Notes under the pieces: generated by a model
What the model saw: the letters and a program-made list of their open reading frames with translations, nothing else
Told to the model about the DNA's origin: nothing
Database searches by the model: none
In this document: in pieces, positions 170-61,535 of the stretch
Numbering within the stretch: position 1 is the first letter of the stretch
Layout of the letters: each line of letters starts with the position of its first letter
Origin: an uncultured Gemmatimonadales bacterium
Lineage (GTDB): Bacteria; Gemmatimonadota; Gemmatimonadetes; Gemmatimonadales; GWC2-71-9
NCBI GenBank assembly: GCA_963833365.1
Contig: CAWHXS010000012.1
Coordinates: forward strand, 56,402-120,401
Direction: 5' to 3'
DNA length: 64,000 nt
Position numbers and translations under genes: made by a program

Positions 170-185
170 GGGGGAGCCGAGCGCG

Positions 186-306
186 GTCGATGGTCAATGG
201 TCAATGGTCCTTCGTCGCTCAGCGCGTCGACCTCCCTGGTCTCTAGTGACGATCGCTTCGATTTCTCTGCATTCGACTATCGACTATTGACTATCGACCA
301 TCGACT
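186..306. repeat. Inverted pair of heptamer tandem arrays
   Basis: Arm 1 at 186-210 is GTCGATG GTCAATG GTCAATG GTCC. Arm 2 at 274-306 is CGACTAT CGACTAT TGACTAT CGACCAT CGACT. The arm 2 units are reverse complements (rotated) of arm 1, with a ~63-nt spacer. Lies between the Ku stop and the MerR start. Confidence 0.75.
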
Positions 307-318
307 GGCACTCGCCGA

Positions 319-1177: not shown

Positions 1178-1204
1178 ATTTCCCAAACGGACGGAGGAAA
1201 GCGT

Positions 1205-1233
1205 ACTATAGGATTGCGAATATGAAGTTGCAA
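1205..1233 (-). promoter_or_regulatory. Candidate sigma70-type promoter for ku
   Basis: On the minus strand: TTGCAA (1228-1233), a 17-nt spacer, then TATAGT (1205-1210). It sits about 28 nt upstream of the ku ATG. Recognised by eye only. Confidence 0.4.
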
Positions 1234-1238
1234 GTCAC

Positions 1239-1322
1239 GGGAGACGGGAGACGGGAGACGGGAGACGGGAGACGGGAGACAGGAGACGGGAGACGGGAGA
1301 CGGGAGACAGGAGATGGGAGAA
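1239..1322. repeat. (GGGAGAC)n heptamer tandem array, 12 units
   Basis: 84 nt of GGGAGAC with three variant units (two GGGAGACA-type and one GGAGATG). It starts 5 nt beyond the putative ku -35 box, in the ku/ligD divergent region. Confidence 0.9.
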
Positions 1323-1365: not shown

Positions 1366-1465
1366 CCGCCTCGTCCGCCTCGTCCGCCTCGTCCGCCTCG
1401 TCCGCCTCGTCCGTCCTGTTCGCCCCGACCGCCTTCCCGCCTTCCCGCCCTACCGCCCTCTTTAC
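1366..1465. repeat. (CCGCCTCGT)5 nonamer array decaying into CCGCCTTC-type 8-mers
   Basis: Five perfect 9-nt units at 1366-1411, followed by CCGTCCTGT, TCGCCCCGA, CCGCCTTC x2 and CCGCCCTA. The track ORF start at 1348 translates this as PPRPPRPPRP, which I regard as non-coding. Confidence 0.85.
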
Positions 1466-1497: not shown

Positions 1498-4113
1498 ATG
1501 CCTGAGCATCCCCTCTCATCCTATCGGGCCAAGCGACGTCTCGAGGCCACCCCGGAGCCGGGAGGAACCGTTGCACCGGGTGGCGGGCATCTGTTCGTCG
1601 TGCACAAGCACGCGGCCCGTCGGCTTCACTTCGATCTCCGGCTCGAAATGGATGGAGTCCTCCGCTCCTGGGCCGTCCCCAAGGGCCCGTCCTACGATCC
1701 GAACGACAAGCGCCTGGCGGTGCACGTCGAGGATCACCCGGTGGAGTACGGGGACTTCGAAGGGATGATTCCGGAGGGCAACTACGGCGCTGGCGCGGTG
1801 ATCGTGTGGGACCGGGGTAGCTGGACTCCCGTCGGTGACCCCAACGAGGGCCTGGCGAAGGGGAAGCTCCTCTTCCGTCTCGATGGCCACAAGCTGCACG
1901 GAATGTGGACGCTCGTGAAGCTGAAGAAGGGTGAAAAAGAGTGGCTGTTGATCAAGGAACGCGATTCCTACGTAACCCCCGGTGGTCGCGAGGTGCCCGA
2001 AGGCTCGGTGCTTTCCGGCGTCACCGTCGAAGACATGAAGGCGAGGACCGATCTGGCAGCACCGGTGCTCAAGGCTCTCGAACGGGTGAAGGCGCTCAAG
2101 CGGGACGTCACGGCCGACAAAGTTGACTTGATGCTGGCGGAAGTTGCCGAGAAGCCGTTCTCCCGCGACGGCTGGCTGTTCGAGCTCAAGCTCGATGGAT
2201 ACCGGCTCCTGGCCGAACGGCGGAAGGGACACGTCGTTCTCCTCACCCGCAATCACAACGATGCCACCGTCACCTTCCCCGAGATCGCGAAGTCCGTGGC
2301 GGCGATGCCGTTCGATTCGCTGATCTTTGACGGCGAGGTGGTGGCGCTGGATCCGACCGGACGGCCGAGTTTCCAGGGCTTGCAACAACGGGGCAGGCTC
2401 CGGCGCCCGCTCGAGGTACAGCGTGCGGCGATCGAGCAACCGGTAGTCTACTTCGTCTTCGATCTCCTCGCCTTTGGCCCCTACGACCTGCGCCCGCTGC
2501 CGCTGGAGGCAAGAAAGGAAATCCTGAAACAGGTGGTGCCCGAGGTCGGCGCCATCCGTTACGTCGACCATATCGAGCGAGAAGGGGAGCAGGCTTTCGC
2601 CGAGGCCGAACGCATGGGCCTCGAGGGCCTTGTCGCAAAGAAGGCCGATGCCCCCTACAAAGGCGGCCGCTCGGCAAACTGGCTCAAGCTTCGCGCGGCC
2701 AAGAGCGACGATTTCGTCGTGGTCGGCTTCACCGCTCCCAAGGGATCGCGCGCCGGGCTGGGAGCCCTGCATCTCGCGCAGTATCTGGACGGAGAGCTGA
2801 CCTATTCCGGTCGCGCGGGCAGCGGGCTCACCGACAAGGATCTGACCGGAATTCGGGAGCACCTGGAGCAGAAGAAGCGGAAGACGCCGCCCTGCGAGAA
2901 GGTGCCCGCCGAAGCGAAGAAGGACTCAACCTGGGTTGAACCGGAATTGGTTTGCGAGGTGCGCTTCACCGAGTGGACCGGCGAAGGCTTGCTGCGTCAC
3001 CCGGTATTTCTCCGCTGGCGCGACGATAAGAAACCGGAGGATTGCATCGGCTCGGCGGCTCGGCGGCTCGGCGGCTCGGCGGGTGAGCCCGAGCCAGGCA
3101 ATACCACCGACAAGCCCTCAGCCAAGCGAGCCAAGCGAGCAACGAACCGCCGAACCGCCCAGTCGCCGAAGCCTGCCGCCGAGCCGCCGAGCCGTGGTGC
3201 CGCCGAGCCGCCGAGCCGCCGCTCTGTCCCCCTGCAGCTCACCAACCTGAAGAAAGTCTTCTGGCCGGTCGAGGGTTACACCAAAGGCGATCTAATCGAG
3301 TACTACCGCGGGATCTCGCCCTGGCTGCTCCCGTATCTGCGCGACAGGCCGGTGGTGCTGACCCGCTTTCCTGACGGGATCGAAGGGAAGTCGTTCTATC
3401 AGAAGGATGCGCCGGACTTCATCCCCGACTGGATTCGCACGGTCCCGATCTGGAGCGAGGATACCGGGCGGGACATCAAGTATTTCGTGTGCGATGACCT
3501 CGATTCACTGCTCTACATCGCGAACATGGGGGCGATCCCGCTGCATCTCTGGCTCAGCAGCGCGGGCTCGCTGGAGCGTCCTGACTGGTGTGTCATGGAT
3601 CTCGACCCCAAGGAGGCGCCCTTCAGCGACGTGATCAAGGTCGCTCGGCTCCTACATGAGCGGTGTGAAACGGCAGGCTTGCCCAACTACGTGAAGACGA
3701 CAGGGAAGACCGGCCTGCACGTGATGATTCCCTTAGGCAAGCAACTCACCTGGGAGATGTCTCGAGGTCTCGGGGAACTGCTCGCGCGAGTCGTGATGCG
3801 GGAACTGGGAGACATCACCACCATCATCCGGCACATCCGGAGTCGAGGGACCAAGGTCTATCTCGACTACATGCAGAACCGTCACGGGCAGCTGATTGTG
3901 GCGCCCTACGCGGTTCGGCCTTTGCCCGGGGCAACGGTCTCGATGCCGCTGGAGTGGAAGGAGGTCAACAACAAACTCGATCCCACGAAGTTCACTATCC
4001 GGACAGCCATCGAGCGAATGCAGAAGCTGGGTCACGACCCGGTGGCACCAGTGCTGACTGAAGTTCCGGATCTGGGGGAGGCGTTGGAGAAGCTGTCGGG
4101 TGGGTCGGGCTGA
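1498..4113 (+). CDS. ligD: Multifunctional NHEJ ligase LigD (phosphoesterase - ATP-dependent ligase - polymerase/primase)
   Basis: PE domain: HLFVVHKHAARRLHFDLRLE. Ligase motif I: FELKLDGYRLLA. Pol domain: LTNLKKVFWP...KTTGKTGLHVMIPL. Start placed at ATG 1498 (MPEHPLSSYRAKR), downstream of the repeat-encoded extension. Confidence 0.9.
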   Translation: MPEHPLSSYRAKRRLEATPEPGGTVAPGGGHLFVVHKHAARRLHFDLRLEMDGVLRSWAVPKGPSYDPNDKRLAVHVEDHPVEYGDFEGMIPEGNYGAGAVIVWDRGSWTPVGDPNEGLAKGKLLFRLDGHKLHGMWTLVKLKKGEKEWLLIKERDSYVTPGGREVPEGSVLSGVTVEDMKARTDLAAPVLKALERVKALKRDVTADKVDLMLAEVAEKPFSRDGWLFELKLDGYRLLAERRKGHVVLLTRNHNDATVTFPEIAKSVAAMPFDSLIFDGEVVALDPTGRPSFQGLQQRGRLRRPLEVQRAAIEQPVVYFVFDLLAFGPYDLRPLPLEARKEILKQVVPEVGAIRYVDHIEREGEQAFAEAERMGLEGLVAKKADAPYKGGRSANWLKLRAAKSDDFVVVGFTAPKGSRAGLGALHLAQYLDGELTYSGRAGSGLTDKDLTGIREHLEQKKRKTPPCEKVPAEAKKDSTWVEPELVCEVRFTEWTGEGLLRHPVFLRWRDDKKPEDCIGSAARRLGGSAGEPEPGNTTDKPSAKRAKRATNRRTAQSPKPAAEPPSRGAAEPPSRRSVPLQLTNLKKVFWPVEGYTKGDLIEYYRGISPWLLPYLRDRPVVLTRFPDGIEGKSFYQKDAPDFIPDWIRTVPIWSEDTGRDIKYFVCDDLDSLLYIANMGAIPLHLWLSSAGSLERPDWCVMDLDPKEAPFSDVIKVARLLHERCETAGLPNYVKTTGKTGLHVMIPLGKQLTWEMSRGLGELLARVVMRELGDITTIIRHIRSRGTKVYLDYMQNRHGQLIVAPYAVRPLPGATVSMPLEWKEVNNKLDPTKFTIRTAIERMQKLGHDPVAPVLTEVPDLGEALEKLSGGSG
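3048..3223. repeat. Composite short-period repeat element inside the ligD Lig-Pol linker
   Basis: (CGGCTCGG)x4 at 3048-3079. (GCCAAGCGA)x2 at about 3121-3139. (GAACCGCC)x2 at 3144-3159. (CCGCCGAG)-type x6 at 3176-3223, which is the reverse complement of the first array. Translated in frame as GSAARRLGGSAGEPEPG...AAEPPSRGAAEPPSRR. Confidence 0.8.
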
Positions 4114-4114
4114 A

Positions 4115-4253
4115 GTCGATGGTCGATGGTCGATGGTCGATGGTCGTGTGGGTCTTGAGTCTTGGGCCATGAGACCGCAACACTGCTGGTCCGCCCCGTC
4201 CGCCCCGTCCGCCCCGTCCGCCCCGTCCGCCTCGTCCGCCCTGTCCGCCCCGT
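4115..4253. repeat. Tandem arrays between the convergent ligD and sthA genes
   Basis: (GTCGATG)x4 at 4115-4142, GTCTTGA GTCTTGG at 4152-4165, and (CCGCCCCGT)x7 at 4191-4253 with two variant units. Confidence 0.9.
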
Positions 4254-4254
4254 C

Positions 4255-10345: not shown

Positions 10346-10359
10346 TGCAGAAAGATACG

Positions 10360-10482
10360 GCGGGAAGGGCGGAAAGGCGGGATGGCGGTAGGGTGGACAG
10401 GGCGGTCGAGACGGTCGGGGCGGACGGTACTGGAACAAGAGGTCTAAGGTTTTGTCACGTCTCACGTCCCACGTCCCACCGA
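10360..10482. repeat. G-rich degenerate array plus a (CACGTCY) heptamer array
   Basis: GGGCGGAAAGGCGGGATGGCGGTAGGGTGG...GACGGTCGGGGCGGACGG contains the reverse complement of the 9-mer unit seen at 4191-4253. CACGTCT CACGTCC CACGTCC lies at 10457-10477. Confidence 0.6.
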
Positions 10483-10581
10483 CTTCCACGTTCCGTTTCG
10501 CGACCTGTAACCTCCAACGGCGCAACGACGTACTCCGCGTATCCACCTCCAGTTCAGCCTCGTCACACAGGAGCACGCGAT

Positions 10582-11646
10582 ATGTCGATTCGCCCCGTTG
10601 CGCTGGGCGTAGCCCTGACGCTCGTGGCCGGAGCCGCCTCCGCCCAGAACTTCCGTCTCGATACTCCCAAGGCGAGTCCACGGGCCTCGGTCAGCCAGAC
10701 GATCGGACTCACGGAGATCAACGTGACCTACGACCGTCCCGCGGTAAACGACCGGAAGATCTGGGGTGGCCTGGTGCCCTACGACACGGTCTGGCGGGCT
10801 GGAGCCAATGAGAACACCGTGCTGTCCTTCAACACGCCGGTCACCATCGGCGACGCGGAAGTCCCGGCGGGACGCTATGGGGTTCACATGGTCCCGACGA
10901 CCAACAAGTGGATGGTGATCTTCTCCAAGCAGGCCGATGCCTGGGGCGCCTTCAGCTACGACCCCAAGGAAGACGAGCTGCGGATCATCGTGCAGCCCAG
11001 GGAGGCGCCGTTCCTCGACCGGCTGCAGTACACCTTCGATGATGTGACGCCGAACTCGACGACGATCTACATGCACTGGGAAAAGCTGGCTGTCCCGATC
11101 CCGATCCAGGTGAACGTGGAGAAGGTGGTCATCGACAGCCTCGCTCAGCAGCTGCGAGGACTTCCCCGATTCTTCCAGGATGGCTGGGGCCAGGCGTCGC
11201 GCTGGGCGTTCACCAACACCAAGGACCTCGACCACGCCGAGGCGTGGGCCGACAGCGCGCTCAAATTCCCGCTCCCGACCTTTCAGACCCTGCAACTCAA
11301 GGCTGCCATTCTCGATAAGAGGGGCAACAAGACCGCGGCGGACTCGGTCCGGAAGCAGGCGATGCTGGTGGCCAACGAGAACGACGTGAACCTGATGGGC
11401 TACAACCTGCTGAATCAGAAGAAGATGGACGAAGCGATCGCGATGTTCCAGAAAAACGTGAAGGCCCACCCCGAATCGTGGAATGTCTACGACAGCCTGG
11501 GCGAGGCCTATGCGACGAAGGGCGACAAGGCCAAGGCCAGCACCAACTACAAGAAGGCGCTGAGCATGTGTCCCGAGGGGCAGAAGCCGAGGATCCAGGG
11601 GATCCTGGCGGGGCTTTCTGGGAGTGGTACCACTACGGGCAGCTGA
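10582..11646 (+). CDS. DUF2911 domain protein with C-terminal TPR repeats, secreted
   Basis: Start at ATG 10582 with signal peptide MSIRPVALGVALTLVAGAASAQ. SQTIGLTEINVTYDRPAVNDRKIWGGLVPYDTVWRAGANENT is the DUF2911 signature. The C-terminus is TPR-like (AIAMFQKNVKAHPESWNVYDSLGEAY). Confidence 0.7.
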   Translation: MSIRPVALGVALTLVAGAASAQNFRLDTPKASPRASVSQTIGLTEINVTYDRPAVNDRKIWGGLVPYDTVWRAGANENTVLSFNTPVTIGDAEVPAGRYGVHMVPTTNKWMVIFSKQADAWGAFSYDPKEDELRIIVQPREAPFLDRLQYTFDDVTPNSTTIYMHWEKLAVPIPIQVNVEKVVIDSLAQQLRGLPRFFQDGWGQASRWAFTNTKDLDHAEAWADSALKFPLPTFQTLQLKAAILDKRGNKTAADSVRKQAMLVANENDVNLMGYNLLNQKKMDEAIAMFQKNVKAHPESWNVYDSLGEAYATKGDKAKASTNYKKALSMCPEGQKPRIQGILAGLSGSGTTTGS

Positions 11647-11652
11647 AGCTCG

Positions 11653-11759
11653 TGAGTAGTCTTGAGTCTTGAGTCTAGAGTCTAGAGTCGTGGGTTTGTG
11701 GTCGAGACTCACGACTCATGACTCTAGACTATCGACTATCGACCATCGTCCATCGACCC
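11653..11759. repeat. Inverted pair of heptamer arrays (potential long hairpin)
   Basis: Left arm: GTGAGTA GTCTTGA GTCTTGA GTCTAGA GTCTAGA GTCGTGG. After a ~10-nt spacer, right arm: GAGACTC ACGACTC ATGACTC TAGACTA TCGACTA TCGACCA TCGTCCA TCGACCC. Confidence 0.85.
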
Positions 11760-11817
11760 TTCCCCATCTCCCTCCCGCCTTCCAAATTCCGTCTCCCTCC
11801 CCCAAGGCTGTTCTGGC

Positions 11818-13314
11818 ATGGCCCAGCTCCACCCGATTCTCGTCAACGGCCAGTGGGTCGCCCCTCACTCGACCAAGGCGCGAACCATTACCAACCCCTC
11901 GACGCTCGAAACGCTGGGGGCCGTCGCGGACTGTGATCTCCACGACGTGGATCACGCGGTGATGGCGGCACTCAATGCCCAACGCGCCTGGTGGAAGGTT
12001 CCTGGTGTCGAGAAGGCGAGGCTGCTGCGGGAAGTGGCCGCGAGGATCCGGGAGAAAGGACCCGAGCTGGCGCCGTTGCTTGCGCGGGAGACGGGAAAGC
12101 CGTTGATCGAGGCGGTGGATTGCATCGACTGGGTAGCGATCTGCTTCGAGTACTACGCCGAGATAGGGAGACGCAGCTACGGGAACTCTATCCCGCCGGG
12201 TGCGGCGCACCAGATCAACTTCACGATCAAGGAGCCGTTCGGAGTCGTCGCGGTCATCGTTCCCTTCAACTTCCCGCTGCTCCTCACCGCGTGGAAGGTG
12301 GCCCCGGCGCTCGCGGCCGGGAACACGGTGGTGTGCAAGCCGCCCCACCAGAACCCGCTCTCCAACCTCTTGATGGCGACGTGTTACGACGTGCTGCCCC
12401 CGGGCGTGGTGAATGTGGTGACCGGTGCCGGGCCGACCGGCGAGGAGCTGGTGCGCCACCCCAAGGTGGACCTGATCGCCTTTACCGGCTCGGTAGCCGC
12501 GGGACGCAGGGTCGCGAGCATGGCGGCGGAGCAGCTCAAGAAGCTGAACCTGGAACTGGGCAGCGTCGATCCGTTCATCGTCTGTGAGGATGCGGATCTC
12601 GATGTCGCGGTCCCCGGAGTCGCCTGGGCTCGGCTGCTCAACGCCGGACAGGTCTGCACGTCGTCCAAGCGGATCTACGTCGTGCAGTCGATCGCGGGCG
12701 AGTTTACCCGGCGGATGGAGCAATACGTGAAATCGCTGGTGGTGGGAGATCCGATGAATCCCGAGACCGATATCGGGCCGCTGATCTCGGACGAGGCACT
12801 GGCGACGGTGGAACGACAGGTCGCGGTGTCGGTACAGCAGGGCGCTCGAGTACTGTTAGGGGGCCGGCGGCGAAAGCACAATGGTCTCAAGGGCCATTTC
12901 TACGAGCCCACGATTCTGACCGACGTGGAGCACGGGACGCTGCCTACGCGAGAAGAAATCTTCGGTCCCGTCATTTCGATCACGGTTGCCCACGACTCCG
13001 ATCATGCCATCGAGATGGCCAACGACTCACAGTACGGGCTCGGTGCCTGCATCTACACCGCGAGTCTCGAGACCGCGATGAAGGCGATGGAGTTCATCAA
13101 GGCGGGAACCTTCTGGATCAACGACCCGCTCACCGACAACAACGCGGGTCCCTTCGGCGGCATGCGGTTGAGCGGGCTGGGGCGGGAGCTGGGAGAGGAA
13201 GGCCTCGACGCCTTCCGGGAACCCAAGCACGTGCATCTCGACTACGTGATGGAGCGGAAGGACTTCTGGTATCCCTACCGGGACCGGCCCATTCCGGGGA
13301 GCGGTGAACGGTGA
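11818..13314 (+). CDS. NAD(P)-dependent aldehyde dehydrogenase
   Basis: 498 aa. FNFPLLLTAWKVAPALAAGNTVVCKPP, LELGSVDP, the catalytic-Cys region NAGQVCTSSKRIYV, and EEIFGPV. Confidence 0.9.
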   Translation: MAQLHPILVNGQWVAPHSTKARTITNPSTLETLGAVADCDLHDVDHAVMAALNAQRAWWKVPGVEKARLLREVAARIREKGPELAPLLARETGKPLIEAVDCIDWVAICFEYYAEIGRRSYGNSIPPGAAHQINFTIKEPFGVVAVIVPFNFPLLLTAWKVAPALAAGNTVVCKPPHQNPLSNLLMATCYDVLPPGVVNVVTGAGPTGEELVRHPKVDLIAFTGSVAAGRRVASMAAEQLKKLNLELGSVDPFIVCEDADLDVAVPGVAWARLLNAGQVCTSSKRIYVVQSIAGEFTRRMEQYVKSLVVGDPMNPETDIGPLISDEALATVERQVAVSVQQGARVLLGGRRRKHNGLKGHFYEPTILTDVEHGTLPTREEIFGPVISITVAHDSDHAIEMANDSQYGLGACIYTASLETAMKAMEFIKAGTFWINDPLTDNNAGPFGGMRLSGLGRELGEEGLDAFREPKHVHLDYVMERKDFWYPYRDRPIPGSGER

Positions 13315-13337
13315 ACGGTTACTTCTCACTTCTCACG
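13303..13337. repeat. Heptamer arrays (GGTGAAC)x2 and (TCTCACN)x2
   Basis: GGTGAAC GGTGAAC GGTTACT TCTCACT TCTCACG, spanning the aldehyde dehydrogenase stop codon. Confidence 0.7.
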
Positions 13338-13924: not shown

Positions 13925-15430
13925 ATGATTGTGTTTCGCGCGGGTTGCCCGGCTGTTTCCTCCTGGCTTGCCGCCACACTCATCCTGTTCGGCTGCACCC
14001 CCTCGCCCCCGGCCTCGGCGGCAGGCCCGCGACCGCACCAGCCCCCAACAACTCCTGGGTGCCGCCGCGACGATCATCCCGAGCTGGCCGAGACTCCGCC
14101 CGCCGGCGACTCGGTGCATGCCCTGCCGGAAGACCTTCTCCCTCGCCTCCAGTCGCTGGGCCTCGGAGACGTCGTTGATCTGGCCCTTCGGAACAACCCC
14201 GCCACTCGTCAGAGTTGGGCCAGCGCCCGGGCCGCGGCGGATCTCTATGGTGCCTCCCGCGGACCGTACTATCCGCAGACTCGACGGGCAAGTCACCGCA
14301 ACCCGGCTCAAGACCACGGCGACTCAGGGCCGCAACGCGCAGCAGCAGACCGTGTACGGGCCGGTACTCAACGTCTCATGGCTTCTGCTCGACTTTGGTG
14401 GACGCTCCGGCGCCACCGGTCAGGCGCGGGAAGCGCTGATCGCCGCCGATTGGACCCACAACGCCACGATTCAGAACGTCGTCCTCACGGCGCAGTCTGC
14501 GTTCTTCCAGTACAGGGCACCCGGGCACTGCTCGCGGCGCAGCAGGTCGAGCGTCAAGGAGGCTCAGGCCAACCTCGACGCGGCAGAAGAGCGTAACAAG
14601 GTTGGTCTCGCGACTATCGCCGACGTCCTGCAGGCGCAAGACCGCGCTCTCCCAGGCGCGAGCTGGCACTCCTTACCACCGAAGGCGCCCTCGCCACGGT
14701 GCGCGGTGCCCTCGCAGTCTCCATGGGACTGCCAGCCAATTTGCCCTATGAGGTGGATTCGCTTGCCGGGCTCCAACGCTGTTCACCGCGCTGGCGGACA
14801 GTGTCGACGCGCTCATCGGCAAGCCGTGCGGGATCGGCCCGACCTGGCTGCCGATCGCAGGCCGAGGTTCGGCAATCGGAGGCGCGACATCACTCGAAGC
14901 CCGCGGCGCCCGGCTTCCGTCCATAGTGGTGACTGGGTCGAACGGGTACACCGGCGTTGGCGGCACCACGGCGCTGAAGAACAGCTACGCGGTGACAGTA
15001 GGCTTGCAGATTCCGCTGTTTAACGGATTTGGCCGGGAATACACCCAGCGTGCCGCCGAGAGTCAGGCGGAGGCCACCCGGGCCGGGGCGCAGACCCTCC
15101 GGCAGCAGGTGATCGCCGAGGTATTCAGCTTCGTACTACGTGCTGCGCACGGCGACCCGGAGGGTGGAGACTACCGATGATCTGCTGGAGAGCGCGGAGC
15201 GTTCTGCGGAGGTGGCGCTGGGGCGCTATCGAGAAGGAGTGGGAAGCGTGATTGACCTGCTGACGGCCGAGGCCGCGCTGGCCGATGCCAGGGCGCAACA
15301 GGTCCAGGCGCGCTGGATTTGGCAGACGGCGCTCGCGCAATTGGCGCGTGACACCGGGCAGCTCGACGAGCGGGGAGGTTCGAGCCTCCGGCTGGGAACC
15401 GATTCAACCGGGGTAGAACCCATACGATGA
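13925..15430 (+). pseudogene. TolC-like outer-membrane efflux factor, at least 6 frame changes
   Basis: Lipoprotein start LILFGC. Recognisable OMF segments hop between frames: DLALRNNPATRQSWASARAAADLYGASRGPYYPQ / VYGPVLNVSWLLLDFGGRSGA / VKEAQANLDAAEERNKVGLATIADVLQAQ / SYAVTVGLQIPLFNGFGREY / SAEVALGRYREGVGSVIDLLTAEAALADARAQQVQA. Confidence 0.8.
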
Positions 15431-19500: not shown

Positions 19501-19759
19501 ATCGCAGCCGCCCCTCGGCGTCGCAGTGGTGGGCGGGCTCGCGTTCTCCCAGTTGATTACGCTCTACGTGACCCCGGTGTTCTACACCTACTTCGATGGC
19601 CTCGCGACCCGAGGGTCAAGACGTGGCGGACCCGAGCGGCCCGGTGGCCGTTGGGCCGATTCAATTGCCATAACCATGATGCCGGAGGCCTCCGCCTTCG
19701 CCACATCCAACACGTCGTTACTTCGTCACATCCAAACATCCAGACATCCAGACACCTGA
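16545..19759 (+). pseudogene. RND inner-membrane efflux transporter (HAE1/AcrB-type), at least 8 frame changes
   Basis: GTG start, [17 protein letters not shown]. Fragments: [42 protein letters not shown] / [23 protein letters not shown] / the long intact TM block FTLLLTIFLVILVIFLFLRNIPATIIPSLALPMSLIGTF...VVDDAIVVLENIVRH / FVHPITILTGLPFAGFGALLILL...FRPIMMTTMAALMGTLPIALG. Confidence 0.85.
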
Positions 19760-19795
19760 CATCCTGACACCTCACTCCTCACATCCTCACCATCC
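19727..19795. repeat. Degenerate 7-8-nt array (ACATCC/ACACC units)
   Basis: CACATCC AAACATCC AGACATCC AGACACC TGACATCC TGACACC TCACTCC TCACATCC TCACCATCC, at the RND 3' end. Confidence 0.7.
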
Positions 19796-21076: not shown

Positions 21077-21165
21077 CGTGAGACGTGAGAAGGGTCGGCT
21101 CCTAACACCGTACTTCTCCGACTCCGCTGTTCCGCCCTTCCGCCCTCTCCGCCCTTTCCGCCACT
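21077..21165. repeat. (CGTGAGA)x2 and (TCCGCCCT)-type 8-9-mer array
   Basis: CGTGAGA CGTGAGA at 21077-21090, which is the reverse complement of the TCTCACG units at 13324-13337 and 10461-10467. TCCGCCCT TCCGCCCT CTCCGCCCT TTCCGCCA at 21131-21163. Confidence 0.65.
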
Positions 21166-28340: not shown

Positions 28341-28450
28341 GGCGCCTGAGTGCGGGGAATGATGCTGAATATAACCAGTAAGTATATGAAGGATGCGGGT
28401 TTGGGGCTAGGTTGCGGCTGGCGGGAGGGCTTGGGCTGGAAGGTAAGAAA

Positions 28451-28528
28451 GACGGTTCGACGGTTAGACGGTTAGTGGTGACGAACCGCCGAACCGCCGA
28501 ACCGTCAAACCGCCAAACCGTCGAACGC
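28451..28528. repeat. Inverted pair of octamer arrays
   Basis: GACGGTTC GACGGTTA GACGGTTA at 28451-28474, then GAACCGCC GAACCGCC GAACCGTC AAACCGCC AAACCGTC GAACGC at 28483-28528. The arms are reverse complements. Confidence 0.85.
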
Positions 28529-35912: not shown

Positions 35913-36057
35913 ACTCGGCGGCTCGGCGCCTCGGCGGACGCCACCCCGAAAAGCTTACCGCGGATGACGCGGAGTACGCGGAAGAACGCGGAGGGAAGTA
36001 CCTATAAACCACTTCGGCGTGAATCCGCGTGTTCCGTGTGTTCCGCGGTATGCAGTT
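35913..36057. repeat. (CTCGGCGN)x3 octamer array plus copy 1 of a palindromic nonamer-arm element
   Basis: ACTCGGCG GCTCGGCG CCTCGGCG at 35913-35936. The palindrome at 35950-36057 has left arm AAGCTTACCGCGGATGACGCGGAGTACGCGGAAGAACGCGGAGGGA and right arm CCACTTCGGCGTGAATCCGCGTGTTCCGTGTGTTCCGCGGTATGCAGTT, with a short loop. Confidence 0.8.
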
Positions 36058-36156
36058 GCGAACGTAGCATCGGGGGTCGTGCGCGTTGGAGGGCCAGACC
36101 GTAGCTTGCAGCAACGGAACTAGGGACGCGTTCCCTCGGAGGAAGAGGGGCTTGGC

Positions 36157-36761: not shown

Positions 36762-36871
36762 GCCCTTAGGCCGAAAGCTGCTCCAGAAACAGTTGACCCT
36801 CCGAATGCTCAGAAAGCACTCGGAGGGTCTACGTTTTTGGAACCGCTGACGGCTGACGGCCAGTGGCTTCT

Positions 36872-42168: not shown

Positions 42169-44368
42169 ACACATCGCTTCCTGGCTATTCACTTACGCGC
42201 TCCACAGCACCGTCCTCCTGGCCGCCGCGTGGCTGGTCACTTGGCGCCTGGTACGGTCTCATGACGTGCGCGACGTGATCTGGAAATCTGCTCTCGTGGG
42301 CTCGCTCATCACCGCCACGCTTCAGGCTGGTTTGGGGTTTGTGCCCGTCGGCGGGCTGGTTTCAATCGTGGGTGTAGGTGCCGCTCCGGCTGAAAAGCAC
42401 GCCACCGCTCCAGTAAAAGCCGATCGGGCGGTGAGCCCCACAGTAGAAACGAAAGCGATCGACGAGATCCCGGTCGCTGGGCCTCTTTTCAACGCTGCCA
42501 AGGGCACCTCGACGCCGACGGTTCCCGCGGAAGCCGCGATGCAACCGGTATCCGAGCAGGTTAATCGCGCGCAACCGTTCGCGCTGATCGCCTGGGCAGT
42601 GAGTGCCGGCCTGCTGCTGATCCTGTATGGCGCCAACCGGCTTCGGCTCTTCTACCGGTTGGGTTCCCGCCGGCCGATCGACGATCCGCGACTGGCACTG
42701 GTGCTCAACCGGCTCCGGGTCGATGCCGGAATTCGTCGCAGTGTCAGCCTGACTGCAGCTCCCGGTCTCTCCAGCCCCGTGGCGTTGGGCAGCTCCGAAA
42801 TCGCCCTGCCTGAAGCGGCGCTAACCGAGCTAGGACCCGACGCGCAGGAGAGTATGCTGGCGCACGAGCTGGCCCACCTCGCCCGGCGCGATCCGCAGTG
42901 GCTAACCCTGGGCTGTATCATCGAGCGGGTCTTCTTCTTCCAGCCGCTCAACCGGCTGGCTCGGTTCCGGATTCAGGAAGCAGCGGAATTCCTCTGCGAC
43001 GACTGGGCGGCACGCCGGACAGGGTCCGGACTGGTACTCGCCAAGTGCCTGGTGAAGGTTGCCGAATGGATCGATACCTCACCCCAGCCGGTGCCGCTGT
43101 CGGCCATGGCCGAGCGTCGCAGCCAGCTGGTTTCCCGTATTCACCGTCTCATCGAGAATCACGCAATGCGCCCACAGCCTCGCCGGTTCTGGTTGATCCC
43201 TGCTGCGGTGGCCCTGGTCCTCATCACGGCGTTCTCGGTGCCGGGGATTTCGGCCGTCCCGACAGACGTGCAACAGGAGGAGGATTCCAAGGCGGTCTTG
43301 GCGGACACTGGTGAGCGTTCGATGCAGTTCTCCCTGAGCAAGATGCACATTCACACCAGGGAGATCGAGCGGCGCGCGATGCGGCAGGTGAAGGCCGCGA
43401 TGGCTCGGACGTCGATACGGGCGATGCCTGCGATAGATCCGGCGCCGGCTGTGAAGGTTGATCTGCACGGGGTCATGGCGGGTGTCGATTTCAAGGGAAA
43501 GCACGCGGGTGACACAACCAACACCGCAGTGCCCGCTCTTATCGCGGCCCTCAAGGACACCGATGTGAAAGTGCGCCGTGCCGCGGCCTCGTCGCTCGGC
43601 AACCTCGAGGATCCCCGGTCGGTCCCCGCGTTGATCGAGGCACTGCGGGACACGGACAGCGAGGTTCGCGCCTGCGCCGCGGATGCGCTGGGGAACATGG
43701 AAGATCCACGCGCCATCCCCGGGCTGACCGCGGCAATCAAGGACAGCAATCCTGAAGTTCGCCGTCGCGCGATCTCCGCCATCAGCAACATGGAGGGCGG
43801 GAACAAGCCGGTGGATGCTTTCATCGTGGCGCTGTCGGACAGCAATGCGGAAGTGCGCGAGGCGGCGGTCGAAGCGCTCAGCGATGTGCAGGACAAGCGA
43901 GCGGTCCGTCCCCTGATCAAGCTGCTGTCGGATCCTTCGGCTGACGTGCGGCACCAGACGGCCCACGCGTTGGGCAACCTGGAAGACCCTGCGGCTGCTG
44001 AACCGCTCGCCGCGGCACTGCGCGACTCGGATGCCGACGTTCGGAGTGCTGCGGCCCAGTCGCTATCCCAGCTCGGTCTCACGACTGCTCCCGCGGCTCT
44101 GATCGAAGCCACCAAGGACAAGAACCCTGACGTCCGGCAGAACGCGGTCCAGGCGCTGGGCCAGATTCGGGACCCCAAGTCCGTCCCGACGCTGCGCGTC
44201 GCATTGAATGACTCGAACGCCGACGTCCGTGATGCCGCGATCGAGGCCCTGAGTGAAGTTCGGGATTCGTCAGCGCTGGATGCCCTGGTCGCCGCACTCA
44301 AGTCGAGCGACCCCAACGTCAGAAGGCAGGCGGCTGAGGCGCTGGGGCAGAGGGATGAGTCGAATTGA
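42161..44368 (+). CDS. BlaR1-like M56 metalloprotease sensor with a C-terminal array of ~9 HEAT (PBS-lyase type) repeats
   Basis: N-terminal TM helices, the zinc motif HELAHLARRD and FLCDDWAA. A further TM helix (FWLIPAAVALVLITAFSVPGISA) follows. From about 43529 there are nine ~31-aa units such as VPALIAALKDTDVKVRRAAASSLGNLEDPRS. Confidence 0.8.
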   Translation: MTEHIASWLFTYALHSTVLLAAAWLVTWRLVRSHDVRDVIWKSALVGSLITATLQAGLGFVPVGGLVSIVGVGAAPAEKHATAPVKADRAVSPTVETKAIDEIPVAGPLFNAAKGTSTPTVPAEAAMQPVSEQVNRAQPFALIAWAVSAGLLLILYGANRLRLFYRLGSRRPIDDPRLALVLNRLRVDAGIRRSVSLTAAPGLSSPVALGSSEIALPEAALTELGPDAQESMLAHELAHLARRDPQWLTLGCIIERVFFFQPLNRLARFRIQEAAEFLCDDWAARRTGSGLVLAKCLVKVAEWIDTSPQPVPLSAMAERRSQLVSRIHRLIENHAMRPQPRRFWLIPAAVALVLITAFSVPGISAVPTDVQQEEDSKAVLADTGERSMQFSLSKMHIHTREIERRAMRQVKAAMARTSIRAMPAIDPAPAVKVDLHGVMAGVDFKGKHAGDTTNTAVPALIAALKDTDVKVRRAAASSLGNLEDPRSVPALIEALRDTDSEVRACAADALGNMEDPRAIPGLTAAIKDSNPEVRRRAISAISNMEGGNKPVDAFIVALSDSNAEVREAAVEALSDVQDKRAVRPLIKLLSDPSADVRHQTAHALGNLEDPAAAEPLAAALRDSDADVRSAAAQSLSQLGLTTAPAALIEATKDKNPDVRQNAVQALGQIRDPKSVPTLRVALNDSNADVRDAAIEALSEVRDSSALDALVAALKSSDPNVRRQAAEALGQRDESN

Positions 44369-44437
44369 AGATTGAAGATTTCAGATTGCAGATTGAACAG
44401 CTTATAGCTGACGGCTGATGGCTGACGGCCGACGGCT
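44363..44437. repeat. Heptamer arrays (ATTGAAG-type x5) and (GCTGACG-type x4)
   Basis: ATTGAAG ATTGAAG ATTTCAG ATTGCAG ATTGAAC at 44363-44397. GCTGACG GCTGATG GCTGACG GCCGACG at 44407-44434. The GCTGACG unit also occurs at 36845-36858. Confidence 0.8.
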
Positions 44438-58900: not shown

Positions 58901-59197
58901 GGAGCGGGCGGCATTTTCAACGGCGCAACTTCCCAGTTCCTGGAAGACGCGTCCTATGCCAAGCTGCGGGAAATCTCCATCGGATATCTGTTCGACGACG
59001 CGTGGGTGCTGGGCGGCCTCGGATTCAACTCGATGGAGGTCCGGGTCGCAGGACGGAACCTGCATACCTGGACCGGGTACAGCGGCATCGATCCCGAGAC
59101 CTCCGTGCTTGGCTCGGCTTCGGCGCTGCGCGGGGTTGATTACTTCAACAACCCGCAGACCAGGTCGTGGGTCTTCTCACTAACCCTGAACCGGTGA
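55912..59197 (+). pseudogene. susC: SusC/RagA-type TonB-dependent receptor, 2-3 frameshifts confined to about 56815-57000
   Basis: Signal peptide. CarboxypepD_reg domain (GRVTSADGDPLGQATVVIERWGLGATTRSDGRYTI). Plug domain (IENVEVLKGPASSAVYGSRAGSGVILITTKKG). Then frame hops: WGPLLAAGTPTFDHSAEMFQDGYQTDNALTVSGGGERTTFF / LSGEYNNNRGIVVGDNNSYRRIALRFNG. The remaining 2.2-kb barrel is uninterrupted. Confidence 0.85.
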
Positions 59198-60807: not shown

Positions 60808-60888
60808 GGGGAGCAGGGAGCAGGGAGTAGGGCCCACGTCCTGACCGTGGAGTTGCAGCCCTATGTCTTGCCACCCACTCCCTACTCC
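60808..60888. repeat. (GGGAGCA)x2-GGGAGTA heptamers with an inverted partner
   Basis: GGGAGCA GGGAGCA GGGAGTA GGG at 60808-60831. CCACTCCCTACTCC at about 60873-60888 is the imperfect reverse complement. Confidence 0.6.
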
Positions 60889-61341: not shown

Positions 61342-61380
61342 ACAACTGCGTGCCGCGGATCTAGTGAGGGGAGCGGAACA

Positions 61381-61516
61381 AACTGCTTACCGCGGATGAT
61401 GCGGAATACACGGAAGAACGCGGAGGGATATTGTTAGTGGCTTGATCCGTCTCTTAAGTACTCGTAACCACTTCCGCGTGCGTCCGCGTGTTCCGCGTGA
61501 TCCGTGGTAAGCAGTT
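61381..61516. repeat. Copy 2 of the palindromic nonamer-arm element
   Basis: Left arm AACTGCTTACCGCGGATGATGCGGAATACACGGAAGAACGCGGAGGGA. A ~40-nt loop. Right arm CCACTTCCGCGTGCGTCCGCGTGTTCCGCGTGATCCGTGGTAAGCAGTT. A partial extra left arm (CAACTGCGTGCCGCGGATC) lies at 61343-61362. Confidence 0.8.
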
Positions 61517-61535
61517 TGGTGGTGGGGGCACTCCC

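What the first reader, a model, noticed from the sequence alone, without database searches (positions are those of the whole stretch)
11653..11759. Most intergenic gaps are built from 7/8/9-nt tandem arrays, usually as inverted array pairs (clearest example here)
Short-period tandem arrays occur in most non-coding gaps longer than about 60 nt.

- Period 7: 186-306, 1239-1322, 4115-4165, 10457-10477, 11653-11759, 13303-13337, 19727-19795, 21077-21090, 36845-36858, 44363-44437, 60808-60831.
- Period 8: 21131-21163, 28451-28528, 35913-35936.
- Period 9: 1366-1411, 4191-4253.

The unit sequences differ between loci. Even so, the same units recur kilobases apart:
- GTCGATG/CGACCAT at 186, 295, 4115 and 11742.
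- GTCTTGA at 4152 and 11659.
- GCTGACG at 36845 and 44407.
- GAACCGCC at 3144 and 28483.
- CTCGGCGG at 3048 and 35913.
- CGTGAGA/TCTCACG at 21077, 13331 and 10461.

Many gaps contain two arrays whose units are reverse complements of each other (186/274, 11653/11704, 28451/28483). Such a gap could fold into a long imperfect hairpin.

This is not the architecture of REP/BIME, ERIC, classical MITEs or CRISPR, and I do not recognise it as a described repeat family. The arrays sit at convergent gene ends, at divergent promoters and between co-directional genes. Candidate roles are terminator/insulator structures, protein-binding arrays, or the footprint of a lineage-specific slippage or recombination process.
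Basis: partly seen in the sequence, partly recalled or inferred. Interest (0 to 1): 0.7.

Follow-up and report, generated by a model that had tools for sequence, protein, structure and literature searches.

The report
Short tandem repeats filling intergenic gaps
The gaps between genes in this uncultured soil bacterium (Gemmatimonadales) are packed with 7-9-base tandem repeats, often as mirror-image pairs that fold into long hairpins right after a gene's stop codon; this type of repeat is already known from Xanthomonas and cyanobacteria, and here it occurs in a new lineage with many different repeat units.

Summary
The arrays are real. TRF finds 29 arrays of period 5-12 in 64 kb. Twenty lie in about 9 kb of non-coding DNA, against 0.4 expected from dinucleotide shuffles. 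They cover about 17% of the truly intergenic DNA, and period 7 dominates.

"Most gaps" and "usually inverted pairs" overstate it. About 13 of 23 true gaps carry arrays, and 5 of those carry complementary pairs.

The window is a Gemmatimonadales MAG. Relatives at 84-94% nucleotide identity, from both short-read and long-read assemblies, keep arrays in the same gaps. Copy number, unit sequence and even period differ between them.

Paired arrays fold into strong hairpins (z -3.8 to -9.4). They start about 5 nt after a stop codon, are enriched in convergent gaps and are depleted in divergent gaps. Six Gemmatimonadales relatives carry such a hairpin after the same aldehyde dehydrogenase gene, built from five unrelated units.

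A strict polarity holds: the G-rich array comes first and the C-rich array second (84:6).

All of this matches the long simple-sequence repeats described by Mrázek (2007) and the Xanthomonas/Nostoc heptamer repeats described by Rehm (2015). Those include inverted pairs and the same polarity relative to genes.

Verdict: a new member of a known kind. The origin is most likely replication slippage. The paired arrays probably act as U-tract-less 3'-end hairpins, but this is not shown.

The parts
11658..11692 (+). Left (5') G-skewed heptamer array of the flagged hairpin: AGTCTTG x2, AGTCTAG x2, AGTCGTG. It starts 12 nt after the stop codon (11644-11646) of the DUF2911/TPR gene.
   Evidence: TRF period 7, 4.6 copies. 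Arm of the inverted repeat, 81-86% complementary. Flanking gene identified by Pfam.
11693..11704 (+). Loop and apical region of the hairpin.
   Evidence: RNAfold of 11647-11770: -49.7 kcal/mol, z -3.82, 0 of 200 shuffles fold as well.
11705..11758 (+). Right (3') C-skewed heptamer arrays: GACTCAC, GACTCAT, GACTCTA, then GACTATC x2, GACCATC, GTCCATC. The outer units have no partner in the left arm and are 90% identical to 275-305.
   Evidence: TRF; inverted repeat; self-BLAST 275-305 ~ 11727-11757.
11759..11817 (+). C/T-rich, G-poor, nearly unstructured leader upstream of the aldehyde dehydrogenase start codon (ATG at 11818).
   Evidence: Sequence. The 80 nt upstream have C 39 and G 10, MFE -5.3 kcal/mol.
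185..306 (.). Inverted pair GTCGATG/GTCAATG ... CGACTAT/CGACCAT with a 56-nt loop, downstream of the Ku gene (minus strand, stop at 319).
   Evidence: Fold z -5.35 on the minus strand.
1237..1321 (+). (GGGAGAC)x12, the G-rich left half of the divergent Ku<->LigD gap. It abuts a promoter-like -35 hexamer (1233-1228, minus strand).
   Evidence: TRF score 149; sequence; promoter-like site.
1366..1459 (+). (CCGCCTCGT)x5 followed by (CCGCCTTC)x3, the C-rich right half of the same divergent gap and leader of LigD.
   Evidence: TRF. 90% identical over 62 nt to 4191-4252.
3048..3221 (+). Inverted pair of 8-nt arrays, (CGGCTCGG)x4.4 ... (CGAGCCGC)x10, inside the LigD ORF. It encodes the disordered linker between the ligase and primase-polymerase domains.
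   Evidence: Pfam domain borders; translation. The L003 orthologue has different arrays.
4115..4254 (+). Convergent gap made almost wholly of arrays: (GTCGATG)x4.6, GTCTTGA x2, then (GTCCGCCCC)x7.3. G-skewed then C-skewed, but not complementary.
   Evidence: Fold z +1.94, less structured than shuffles. Orthologues in L003 and L037.
10359..10479 (+). Divergent gap DUF445<->DUF2911: degenerate G-rich 8/9-nt arrays (10359-10427), then (CACGTCC)x3.4 (10456-10479). The CACGTCC array has 11 copies in L003.
13302..13336 (+). Short arrays (CGGTGAA x2.6, overlapping the Aldedh stop codon, and ACTTCTC x2.3) in the 32-nt convergent gap after Aldedh. This is a remnant arm: L003 has the full pair GGAGTGA/TCTCACT here.
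19726..19795 (+). C/A-rich 7/8-nt arrays at the end of the AcrB-like gene. Almost no secondary structure.
   Evidence: TRF. MFE -3.3 kcal/mol for 91 nt.
21130..21162 (+). (TTCCGCCC)x3.9, a C-rich array.
   Evidence: TRF.
28450..28526 (.). Inverted pair of 8-nt arrays, (GACGGTTA)x3 / (GAACCGCC)x5.6. It ends 2 nt from the stop codon (28528-28530) of the upstream minus-strand gene.
   Evidence: Fold z -5.46 on the minus strand.
35914..36053 (+). (CTCGGCGG)x3 directly after the stop codon at 35912, then a palindromic element (35953-36053) whose arms are 9-nt units with a conserved CGCGGA core.
   Evidence: Fold z -6.70.
44364..44437 (+). Two unrelated heptamer arrays, (ATTGAAG)x4.9 and (GCTGACG)x4.4. 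They fill the 84-nt gap between two HEAT-repeat genes, and the first overlaps the stop codon.
60809..60832 (+). (GGGAGCA)x3.4 at the junction between two plus-strand ORFs.
   Evidence: TRF.
61379..61518 (.). Second copy of the CGCGGA-core palindromic element, in a convergent gap. 46-nt arms, 85% complementary.
   Evidence: Fold z -9.40. A related copy lies in metagenome contig L146.

Best explanation
The arrays are long simple-sequence repeats with 7-9-nt units, in an uncultured Gemmatimonadales bacterium.

**Origin (inferred, strongly supported).** Replication slippage adds and removes whole units. From general knowledge, loops of 7-9 nt are larger than the 1-4 nt that MutS-type mismatch repair corrects. 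Purifying selection confines the arrays to gaps and to one disordered protein linker, so they expand until they touch stop codons.

**Polarity (shown).** Within a gap, the 5' array is G-rich and the 3' array is C-rich, on both strands. RNA entering a gap from a gene is therefore G-rich first. RNA leaving a gap towards a start codon is C-rich, G-poor and unstructured.

**Paired arrays (position shown, function inferred).** Where the two arrays are complementary, as at 11658-11758, the upstream gene's transcript folds into a 30-50-bp hairpin that begins 0-12 nt after the stop codon. I infer that this hairpin defines or protects the mRNA 3' end. It could be a terminator without a U-tract, or a barrier to 3' exonucleases after Rho-dependent termination. 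In convergent gaps it would act in both directions.

**Unpaired arrays (inferred).** Those in divergent and promoter-proximal positions act mainly as structure-free spacers or leaders, and may have no specific function.
For: **Enrichment and distribution**
- Arrays are about 47-fold enriched in non-coding DNA over shuffles. They cover 17% of the true intergenic DNA, with a lag-7 autocorrelation peak.
- They are present in independent short-read assemblies (L001, L002, L005, L007, L023) and long-read assemblies (L003, L037, L025).
- Arrays of period 7-9 occur at 0.22 per kb in 20 Gemmatimonadales loci and 0.035 per kb in 53 loci from other taxa (p = 4e-4).

**Slippage**
- Orthologous gaps differ by whole units and by unit type. 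CACGTCC has 3.4 copies here and 11 in L003. GTCGATG x4.6 here corresponds to TCGTCGGT x4 in L037. Pair, single arm or nothing is found at 13315 in different relatives.
- Identical variant units sit next to each other.

**Hairpins at gene 3' ends**
- Fold z-scores are -3.8 to -9.4 for pairs, against +0.7 and +1.9 for unpaired arrays.
- Of 46 intergenic pairs, 21 are in convergent gaps, 21 in co-directional gaps and 4 in divergent gaps. The baseline for all gaps is 72/236/98 (chi-square p = 2.6e-5).
- In co-directional gaps the pair lies a median of 5 nt after the upstream stop codon and 69 nt before the next start codon (16 of 21). Unpaired arrays show no such bias (37 of 72).
- After the Aldedh stop codon, six Gemmatimonadales relatives have array hairpins made from five unrelated units. 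None of 18 other taxa has arrays there.
- Canonical hairpin-plus-T-run terminators are not enriched in the window (6 found against 10.3 expected, and 8 against 12.3).

**Polarity**
- In pairs, the 5' arm is G-rich in 38 cases and C-rich in 1.
- Adjacent arrays read G-then-C in 84 cases and C-then-G in 6, counted without any gene calls.
- Relative to genes: 39:3 G-rich after stop codons in convergent gaps, and 23:7 C-rich before start codons in divergent gaps. In co-directional gaps Fisher p = 6e-6.
- The same rules are published for Xanthomonas and Anabaena (PMC4692102).
Against: - No transcript data exist, so 3'-end formation is inferred from position only.
- Most hairpins lack a U-tract. The 10 nt after the stem are 28% T, and only 6 of 28 have at least 5 T. 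Mycobacterial RNA polymerase has been shown to need a U-tract (PMC3993855), so autonomous termination is doubtful.
- Hairpins are not more stable on the sense strand than on the antisense strand (14 against 9, p = 0.35; G-U pairs 59 against 49).
- The order of variant units is not mirrored between the arms. Unit-order shuffles fold as well as the real sequence in 8 of 9 hairpins. There is therefore no pair-by-pair compensatory signal, and complementarity holds only at the level of the consensus unit.
- Some relatives have lost the array altogether (L037 at the 13315 gap).
- The gap-type statistics rest on my own crude gene caller. The sample is ascertained through one gene (Aldedh) and one unit (GGGAGAC).
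- Recurrence of the same units at unlinked loci and in other organisms is not explained by local slippage alone.
Confidence: 0.55

Rival explanations
1. Neutral mutational debris. The arrays, the pairs and the polarity are by-products of slippage acting on the local composition of gaps, with no function. Hairpins arise because both arms of ordinary short stem-loops, or fold-back duplications, get amplified.
For: - Copy number and unit sequence turn over quickly, and arrays can be lost.
- Variant order is not mirrored between arms, and there is no sense-strand bias in stability.
- Gaps without arrays already show a weak G-then-C polarity (117:75, p = 5e-6). Arrays may simply amplify that local sequence.
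Against: - Pairs, but not unpaired arrays, are tied to stop codons and avoid divergent gaps.
- A hairpin persists after the same gene in six lineages although the unit sequence is completely different.
- The polarity is far stronger in arrays (84:6) than in the background (117:75).
Confidence: 0.2
2. Arrays of binding sites for sequence-specific DNA- or RNA-binding proteins, for example nucleoid-associated or cold-shock-type proteins that bind one unit each. Conserved cores would be the contact points.
For: - The same units recur at unlinked loci and in many other contigs. (GGGAGAC) with at least 4 copies occurs in more than 120 metagenome stretches.
- Some families have a conserved core and variable remainder. 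In GTC-N4, positions 1-3 have 0.3-0.8 bits of entropy and positions 4-7 have 1.3-1.75 bits. The CGCGGA core in the palindromic element is conserved in a different contig.
Against: - At least a dozen unrelated units and three periods occur in one 64-kb window.
- Orthologous gaps swap one unit for another.
- Periods of 7-9 bp are not in phase with the DNA helix.
- No candidate protein is linked to the arrays.
Confidence: 0.1
3. G-quadruplex or i-motif regulatory elements, as proposed for the Xanthomonas and Nostoc GGGNATC repeats.
For: - (GGGAGAC)x12 at 1237-1321, and (GGGGCGGAC)x7 on the minus strand at 4189-4254, satisfy the G3+N1-7 quadruplex motif.
- GGGNNNN units dominate the metagenome contigs that carry GGGAGAC.
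- The Xanthomonas units form G4 structures in vitro (PMC4692102).
Against: - Most units in the window have no G3 run and cannot form G4: GTCGATG, GTCTTGA, GACGGTTA, GAACCGCC, CACGTCC, ATTGAAG and GCTGACG.
- These units still obey the same position and polarity rules, so G4 cannot be the unifying property.
Confidence: 0.07
4. Dispersed mobile or recombining elements (REPIN- or MITE-like) that carry internal periodicity and are copied between gaps.
For: - The elements at 35953-36053 and 61379-61518 are two copies of one palindromic element (86-93% identity). A relative lies in another contig.
- 275-305 and 11727-11757 share the same order of variant units.
- L002 carries a nested palindromic insertion in the loop of its array hairpin.
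Against: - I saw no terminal inverted repeats or target-site duplications, and I did not look for a transposase.
- Differences between orthologues are gains and losses of whole units, not presence or absence of an element.
- Most arrays have no second copy in the window.
Confidence: 0.06
5. Assembly or sequencing artefact of a long-read MAG.
For: The window has several genes split by frame changes (Ku, TonB-dependent receptor, AcrB). This suggests indel errors.
Against: - Homologous arrays occur at the same gaps in independent short-read assemblies (L001, L002) and in other long-read MAGs.
- Similar arrays occur in many unrelated metagenome assemblies.
Confidence: 0.01

Closest known systems
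G-rich heptamer repeats of Xanthomonas (GGGAATC) and Nostoc/Anabaena (GGGGAYT), Rehm et al. 2015 (PMC4692102)
   Same: - Heptamer tandem arrays, about 90% intergenic.
- Many occur as convergent inverted pairs, G-rich arm first.
- They lie close to, or overlap, the stop codon of the upstream ORF.
- The G-rich strand is the coding strand downstream of ORFs and the non-coding strand upstream.
- Position is conserved between related genomes while length and sequence vary. They are not linked to mobile elements (compared).
   Different: - There, one unit family dominates each genome and was studied as a G-quadruplex former.
- Here at least a dozen units and three periods (7, 8, 9) coexist, and most cannot form G4.
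- The phylum is different.
- Array density is higher here: 0.45 arrays of any unit per kb, against about 186 GGGAATC arrays per Xanthomonas genome. The genome size behind that comparison is from my own knowledge.
Long simple-sequence repeats (LSSRs) with 5-11-nt units, Mrázek, Guo & Shah 2007 (read only as summarised in PMC4679880 and PMC4692102)
   Same: - Tandem head-to-tail units, with heptamers the commonest.
- Typical of large, high-GC genomes of non-pathogens.
- Mostly non-coding. Units whose length is not a multiple of 3 are excluded from genes.
- Polymerase slippage is the proposed origin.
   Different: - No Gemmatimonadota is mentioned in the papers I could search.
- The pairing, the 3'-end position and the polarity are not part of that definition.
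Cyanobacterial STRR heptamers and TAACTGA heptamer repeats (MacGregor 2015, PMC4679880)
   Same: - Intergenic heptamer arrays with variable copy number and unknown function.
- Cyanobacterial loci in my sample have a similar array density (0.16 per kb).
- One metagenome contig (L134) carries TAACTGA-type units as inverted pairs.
   Different: - Those are AT-richer specific units, mostly direct repeats just upstream of start codons.
- No inverted pairs were found in my 8 cyanobacterial loci.
- None of those units occurs in the window.
REP/BIME and REPIN elements
   Same: Extragenic palindromes after gene 3' ends that form hairpins and can stabilise upstream mRNA (from my own knowledge). The CGCGGA-core element at 35953 and 61379 behaves like a dispersed palindromic element.
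   Different: REPs are fixed 20-40-nt sequences in hundreds of near-identical copies, mobilised by RAYT transposases. Here the stems are tandem arrays of locus-specific units, and the differences between relatives are whole-unit indels.
Intrinsic (Rho-independent) terminators, including bidirectional ones between convergent genes
   Same: A strong hairpin directly after the stop codon, enriched between convergent genes.
   Different: - Stems of 30-50 bp are far longer than the usual 5-15 bp.
- Most have no U-tract.
- The scan for canonical terminators is not enriched in the window.
Tandem repeats of Borg elements (PMC9879509)
   Same: Pervasive, fast-evolving tandem repeats in intergenic DNA. 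When in frame, they create disordered protein regions, as the LigD linker does here.
   Different: Borg repeats have longer units, are near-perfect, and occur in archaeal extrachromosomal elements. No inverted-pair architecture is described in the abstract I saw.

Membership tests
Long simple-sequence repeats, 5-11-nt class (Mrázek 2007) | Head-to-tail iterations of a 5-11-nt unit, longer than expected by chance for the genome's composition | tested here: met
   20 arrays in non-coding DNA against 0.43 +/- 0.68 in dinucleotide shuffles.
Long simple-sequence repeats, 5-11-nt class (Mrázek 2007) | Heptamers the commonest unit; arrays concentrated outside genes | tested here: met
   TRF rows by period: 13 of period 7, 10 of period 8, 7 of period 9. 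Lag-7 autocorrelation peak in intergenic DNA only. Period 7 accounts for 299 of 411 arrays in related metagenome contigs.
Xanthomonas/Nostoc G-rich heptamer repeats (Rehm 2015) | Unit of the type GGGNATC / GGGGAYT | tested here: not met
   No such unit in the window. The closest is GGGAGAC. GGGAATC does occur in some GGGAGAC-bearing metagenome contigs.
Xanthomonas/Nostoc G-rich heptamer repeats (Rehm 2015) | Sequence able to form a G-quadruplex (at least 4 runs of G3) | tested here: not met
   Only 1237-1321, and 4189-4254 on the minus strand, fit the motif. Most units lack G3 runs. Actual folding into G4 was not tested.
Xanthomonas/Nostoc G-rich heptamer repeats (Rehm 2015) | Convergent inverted pairs; G-rich strand is the coding strand after stop codons and the non-coding strand before start codons; position conserved, length variable | tested here: met
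   compared with PMC4692102.
REP/BIME/REPIN | Fixed imperfect palindrome of 20-40 nt in many near-identical dispersed copies | tested here: not met
   Self-BLAST shows only pairwise unit-level matches between array loci. The exception is the CGCGGA-core element, with two copies in the window and one relative in L146.
REP/BIME/REPIN | Association with a RAYT (IS200/IS605-like) transposase | not tested
   I made no search for RAYT genes, and only 64 kb of the genome is available.
MITE | Terminal inverted repeats flanked by target-site duplications; presence/absence polymorphism of the whole element | tested here: not met
   Orthologous gaps differ by unit number and unit type, not by empty against filled sites. 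I saw no terminal inverted repeats or duplications.
CRISPR | Repeats of 23-50 nt separated by unique spacers of similar length | tested here: not met
   Units are 7-9 nt and directly abut each other.
Canonical intrinsic terminator | GC-rich hairpin directly downstream of a gene | tested here: met
   Fold z -3.8 to -9.4. Median distance from the stop codon is 5 nt.
Canonical intrinsic terminator | U-tract of 7-9 nt immediately after the stem | tested here: not met
   The 10 nt after the stem are 28% T, and 6 of 28 have at least 5 T. The flagged hairpin is followed by CCCTTCCCCATCTCC.
Canonical intrinsic terminator | Transcripts end at the site | not testable with these tools
   No RNA data are available for this uncultured organism.

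The most novel reading that the evidence does not exclude
Intergenic gaps in these high-GC bacteria may follow a general, orientation-independent design: a G-skewed array followed by a C-skewed array. Together these would work as a U-tract-independent, bidirectional transcription insulator.

- Any polymerase entering a gap would make G-rich RNA and then its complement. The resulting long hairpin, or R-loop/G4, would create a 3' end.
- Any polymerase leaving a gap would make a C-rich, structure-free leader.
- Slippage would be the way these insulators are built, tuned and replaced.
- This would also explain the unexplained Xanthomonas and Nostoc heptamer repeats without invoking G-quadruplexes.
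Probability: 0.2. Interest if true: 0.7.

Novelty: new member of a known kind. Interest (0 to 1): 0.4.

Why it matters
Nobody knows what long simple-sequence repeats with 5-11-nt units do in bacteria. The best-studied case, Xanthomonas GGGAATC, was interpreted through G-quadruplexes.

This lineage obeys the same rules of position, pairing and strand polarity, but with many units that cannot form quadruplexes. That points to strand skew and hairpin potential as the shared property, and it makes the question testable: do these hairpins make transcript 3' ends in genomes that lack canonical terminators?

There are also practical consequences:
- Arrays at this density (about 17% of intergenic DNA) will break short-read assemblies of soil Gemmatimonadales.
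- They could serve as high-resolution strain markers.
- They can invade disordered protein linkers, as in LigD here.

Tried and rejected
- **Known RNA genes.** Rfam at gathering thresholds over the whole window gave no hit. There are no tRNA or tmRNA genes.
- **Exact protein look-up.** The Aldedh protein is not on record in the assembly index.
- **Compensatory evolution between arms.** I shuffled the order of units within each arm of 9 hairpins. The observed fold is not better than the shuffles, except in L003 (p = 0.02). I rejected this as evidence for pair-by-pair selection or arm-to-arm templated correction.
- **RNA-level strand specificity.** Sense and antisense folds of 23 pairs in co-directional gaps do not differ significantly.
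- **U-tract or pyrimidine tail after the hairpins.** Only a mild T enrichment.
- **Canonical terminator and sigma-70 promoter scans.** Not enriched over shuffles.
- **A GTC/GAC core common to all arrays.** It is present in 48% of units, against roughly 25% expected from composition by my own estimate. That is suggestive only. It is clear only within the GTC-N4 family.
- **A general C-rich sense bias in unpaired arrays of co-directional gaps.** Absent overall (40:32). It appears only once arrays are split by which gene end they are nearest to.
- **Exact array patterns in the 80 Aldedh loci.** No matches apart from L002.
- **Transcription-coupled mutational skew as the cause of the polarity.** Rejected, because the polarity is the same in convergent and divergent gaps.
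- **Literature.** No paper on tandem repeats in Gemmatimonadota was found. The Mrázek 2007 paper is not held, so I cite it only through papers that summarise it.
- **First gene calls.** They over-extended ORFs and left broken genes as false gaps. I curated the gap list by hand.
Full report

The flagged stretch reads AGTCTTG AGTCTTG AGTCTAG AGTCTAG AGTCGTG, then a short loop, then GACTCAC GACTCAT GACTCTA GACTATC GACTATC GACCATC GTCCATC. TRF reports three period-7 arrays there, and 53 rows over the whole window.

After merging, there are 29 arrays of period 5-12 with at least 2.5 copies, or 0.45 per kb. With a codon-usage gene caller trained on the window, 20 arrays fall in 9.2 kb of non-coding DNA. 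One hundred dinucleotide-preserving shuffles give 0.43 +/- 0.68, with a maximum of 3. Coding DNA has 9 arrays against 2.6 expected.

Several of those 9 are not in ordinary coding sequence:
- The arrays at 10363-10479 lie in the true divergent gap 10346-10581 between a DUF445 gene and a DUF2911/TPR gene.
- The arrays at 3048-3221 encode the disordered linker between the ligase and primase-polymerase domains of LigD.

In a hand-curated list of 23 truly intergenic gaps, arrays cover 837 of 4822 nt. Autocorrelation peaks at lag 7 (0.327, against about 0.27 background and 0.258 in coding DNA), and again at lags 14 and 9. Thirteen of those 23 gaps hold an array.

"Most gaps" is therefore about half. 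Complementary pairs occupy 5 gaps, plus one pair inside LigD.

The recurrence of units at distant loci is real. Nine of the 10 significant off-diagonal matches in a self-BLAST of the window connect array loci.

**2. Where does the window come from, and is this an artefact?**

The aldehyde dehydrogenase gene next to the finding (11818-13314) finds Gemmatimonadales MAGs at 92-99% protein identity (L001, L002, L037, L003). Further Gemmatimonadales follow at 67-75%. The closest four are syntenic at 84-94% nucleotide identity.

The window has several genes split over reading frames (Ku, a TonB-dependent receptor, AcrB), so it contains indel errors or pseudogenes. The arrays themselves are corroborated. 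Short-read assemblies (L001, L002, L005, L007, L023) and other long-read MAGs carry arrays in the same places.

**3. How do the arrays evolve?**

In orthologous gaps the position is kept but the content changes.

| Gap | Window | Relatives |
|---|---|---|
| 4114-4254 | (GTCGATG)x4.6 ... (GTCCGCCCC)x7.3 | L003 the same with other variants; L037 (TCGTCGGT)x4 ... GTCCGCC-type |
| 10456 | CACGTCC x3.4 | L003 x11 |
| 13315 (after Aldedh) | 2.3 copies of ACTTCTC | L001 3.4 copies; L002 a different unit; L037 nothing; L003 a full inverted pair GGAGTGA/TCTCACT |
| 11647-11817 (flagged gap) | GTC-N4 arrays and their complement | L001 and L037 the same type; L002 and L003 GGGAGAC arrays and their complement |

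Whole-unit differences, and runs of identical variant units, are the signature of slippage.

Within the GTC-N4 family I collected 63 units (30 distinct) from three loci in four genomes. The first three positions are nearly invariant and the other four vary freely.

**4. Two structural classes**

Paired arrays fold much better than shuffles:
- z -3.82 for the flagged locus
- z -5.46 for 28430-28530 (minus strand)
- z -5.35 for 175-315 (minus strand)
- z -6.70 and -9.40 for the two copies of a palindromic element with 9-nt CGCGGA-core units

Unpaired arrays fold no better than shuffles, or worse (+1.94, +0.66, -1.37).

**5. Where do the pairs sit?**

I applied the same gene caller to 20 Gemmatimonadales loci and to the high-GC contigs recovered with (GGGAGAC)x4. 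This gave 46 intergenic pairs: 21 in convergent gaps, 21 in co-directional gaps and 4 in divergent gaps. The baseline for all gaps is 72/236/98 (chi-square p = 2.6e-5).

In co-directional gaps the pair starts a median of 5 nt after the upstream stop codon and ends 69 nt before the next start codon (16 of 21). Unpaired arrays show no such preference (37 of 72). In convergent gaps the pair typically fills the whole gap.

Directly after the Aldedh stop codon, L003, L005, L007, L009, L023 and L025 carry array hairpins (z -3.7 to -7.2). These are built from five unrelated units: GGAGTGA, GAGACGGTC, GAAAGGG, GGCGGTTA and GGGCCCN. The 18 loci from other taxa have ordinary sequence there, or ordinary hairpins without arrays.

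So the hairpin is retained or regenerated while its sequence is replaced.

**6.

- In 38 of 39 skewed pairs the 5' arm is G-rich and the 3' arm is C-rich.
- Without any gene calls, adjacent arrays read G-then-C rather than C-then-G in 7:0 cases in the window. The counts are 11:1 in other Gemmatimonadales loci and 66:5 in the metagenome contigs.
- Relative to genes, arrays after stop codons are G-rich on the sense strand (39:3 in convergent gaps).
- Arrays before start codons are C-rich on the sense strand (23:7 in divergent gaps). In co-directional gaps the split by nearest gene end gives Fisher p = 6e-6.
- Because the order is the same in convergent and divergent gaps, transcription-coupled mutation cannot explain it.
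- Gaps without arrays show a weak version (117:75). The arrays therefore amplify a background property of the gaps.

**7. Tests that came out negative**

- The order of variant units is not mirrored between arms.
- Hairpins are not more stable on the sense strand.
- Most hairpins lack a U-tract.
- Canonical terminators are not enriched in the window.
- Mycobacterial RNA polymerase needs a U-tract in vitro (PMC3993855).

A role in defining 3' ends is therefore inferred from position. It may be processing or protection rather than autonomous termination.

**8. Comparison with what is known**

Papers that summarise Mrázek et al. 2007 describe long simple-sequence repeats with 5-11-nt units. Heptamers are the commonest, they occur in large high-GC genomes, and slippage is the proposed origin.

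Rehm et al. 2015 describe about 186 GGGAATC arrays in Xanthomonas:
- About 90% are intergenic.
- There are 70-75 pairs, "always" convergent.
- They lie close to or overlap stop codons.
- The G-rich strand is the coding strand downstream of ORFs and the non-coding strand upstream.
- 83% are at conserved positions, with variable length.

Each of these positional features is reproduced here. What differs is the phylum, the number of unit families and periods, the inability of most units to form G4, and the density.

Array density of period 7-9 is 0.22 per kb in Gemmatimonadales loci. It is 0.035 per kb in 53 loci from other taxa (p = 4e-4) and 0.16 per kb in cyanobacteria. It varies within the order. 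Inverted array pairs also turn up occasionally in Chloroflexi, Eisenbacteria and a proteobacterial MAG.

I found no paper describing this in Gemmatimonadota.

**9. Verdict**

The arrays belong to a described kind of repeat. They are a new member of that kind, in a new lineage.

The useful addition is that the position and polarity rules hold for units that cannot form quadruplexes.

The most likely mechanism has three parts:
- Slippage-generated arrays confined to unconstrained DNA.
- Complementary G-arm/C-arm pairs serving as long hairpins at gene 3' ends.
- Non-complementary arrays serving as structure-free spacers.

Only the sequence-level steps are shown. The transcript-level steps are inferred.

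Noticed in passing
window 3048-3221: An inverted pair of 8-nt arrays lies in frame inside the LigD ORF. It encodes the basic, proline-rich linker between the ligase and primase-polymerase domains. The L003 orthologue has a different left array and is 13 codons shorter. Either the arrays invaded a disordered linker, or a former gap was read through.
   Followed up: partly
window 319-1186; 55912-59197; 16914-19759; 13929-15430: Ku, a TonB-dependent receptor, an AcrB-type transporter and an outer-membrane efflux protein are each split over overlapping reading frames. These are either indel errors of a long-read assembly or pseudogenes. Gene calls in this window are unreliable.
   Followed up: partly
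window 35945-36060 and 61375-61522; L146 1155-1465: A dispersed palindromic element whose arms are 9-nt units with a conserved CGCGGA core and variable 3-4-nt spacers. There are two copies in the window (86-93% identical) and a related one in an unrelated metagenome contig. It looks more like a REPIN-type element or a binding-site array than a slippage array.
   Followed up: partly
L134 (metagenome contig Ga0070697_100003296), whole 12.4 kb: About 26 heptamer arrays in 12.4 kb (GC 0.63), with 8 inverted pairs. Many are built from TCAGTTA/AACTGAA, the reverse complement of the TAACTGA unit described in Beggiatoaceae and cyanobacteria. The organism was not identified.
   Followed up: no
L002 4895-4985: The loop of the GGGAGAC array hairpin upstream of Aldedh holds a nested, unrelated palindrome (GTCATTCCGAGCGAAGCGAGGAATC ... 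GATTCCTCGGTCGCCTCGCTCCCTCGGAATGAC), as if a small palindromic element had inserted at the hairpin tip.
   Followed up: no
window 10346-10581, compared with L002 2281-3901 and L037 7244-8852: The divergent DUF445<->DUF2911 gap is about 1.1 kb longer in L002 and L037 than in the window and L003. It probably holds an extra gene there, which I did not examine.
   Followed up: no
window 1205-1233 (minus strand): The only good sigma-70-like site near Ku (TTGCAA, 17-nt spacer, TATAGT) sits 4 nt from the end of the (GGGAGAC)x12 array. Copy-number changes would move whatever lies upstream without changing the promoter spacing.
   Followed up: no
window: 80 nt upstream of the start codons at 1186 (minus), 1498, 10582, 11818 and 28340 (minus): Five genes have very C-rich, G-poor leaders with almost no predicted structure (MFE -2 to -11 kcal/mol per 80 nt) and no obvious Shine-Dalgarno sequence. 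Other genes in the window do not have this. Over 19 upstream regions the C/G ratio is 1.38.
   Followed up: partly
window 38163-38203 and 19128-19180: Longer-period perfect or near-perfect tandem duplications lie inside coding regions (18 nt x2.3 at 100% identity, and 27 nt x2.0). They are unrelated to the 7-9-nt class.
   Followed up: no
window 36795-36829 (minus strand): A perfect 16-bp non-repetitive hairpin lies about 40 nt after the stop codon of the gene 36872-38827 (minus strand), with only a weak T-rich tail. Ordinary hairpins therefore also mark 3' ends in this genome.
   Followed up: no
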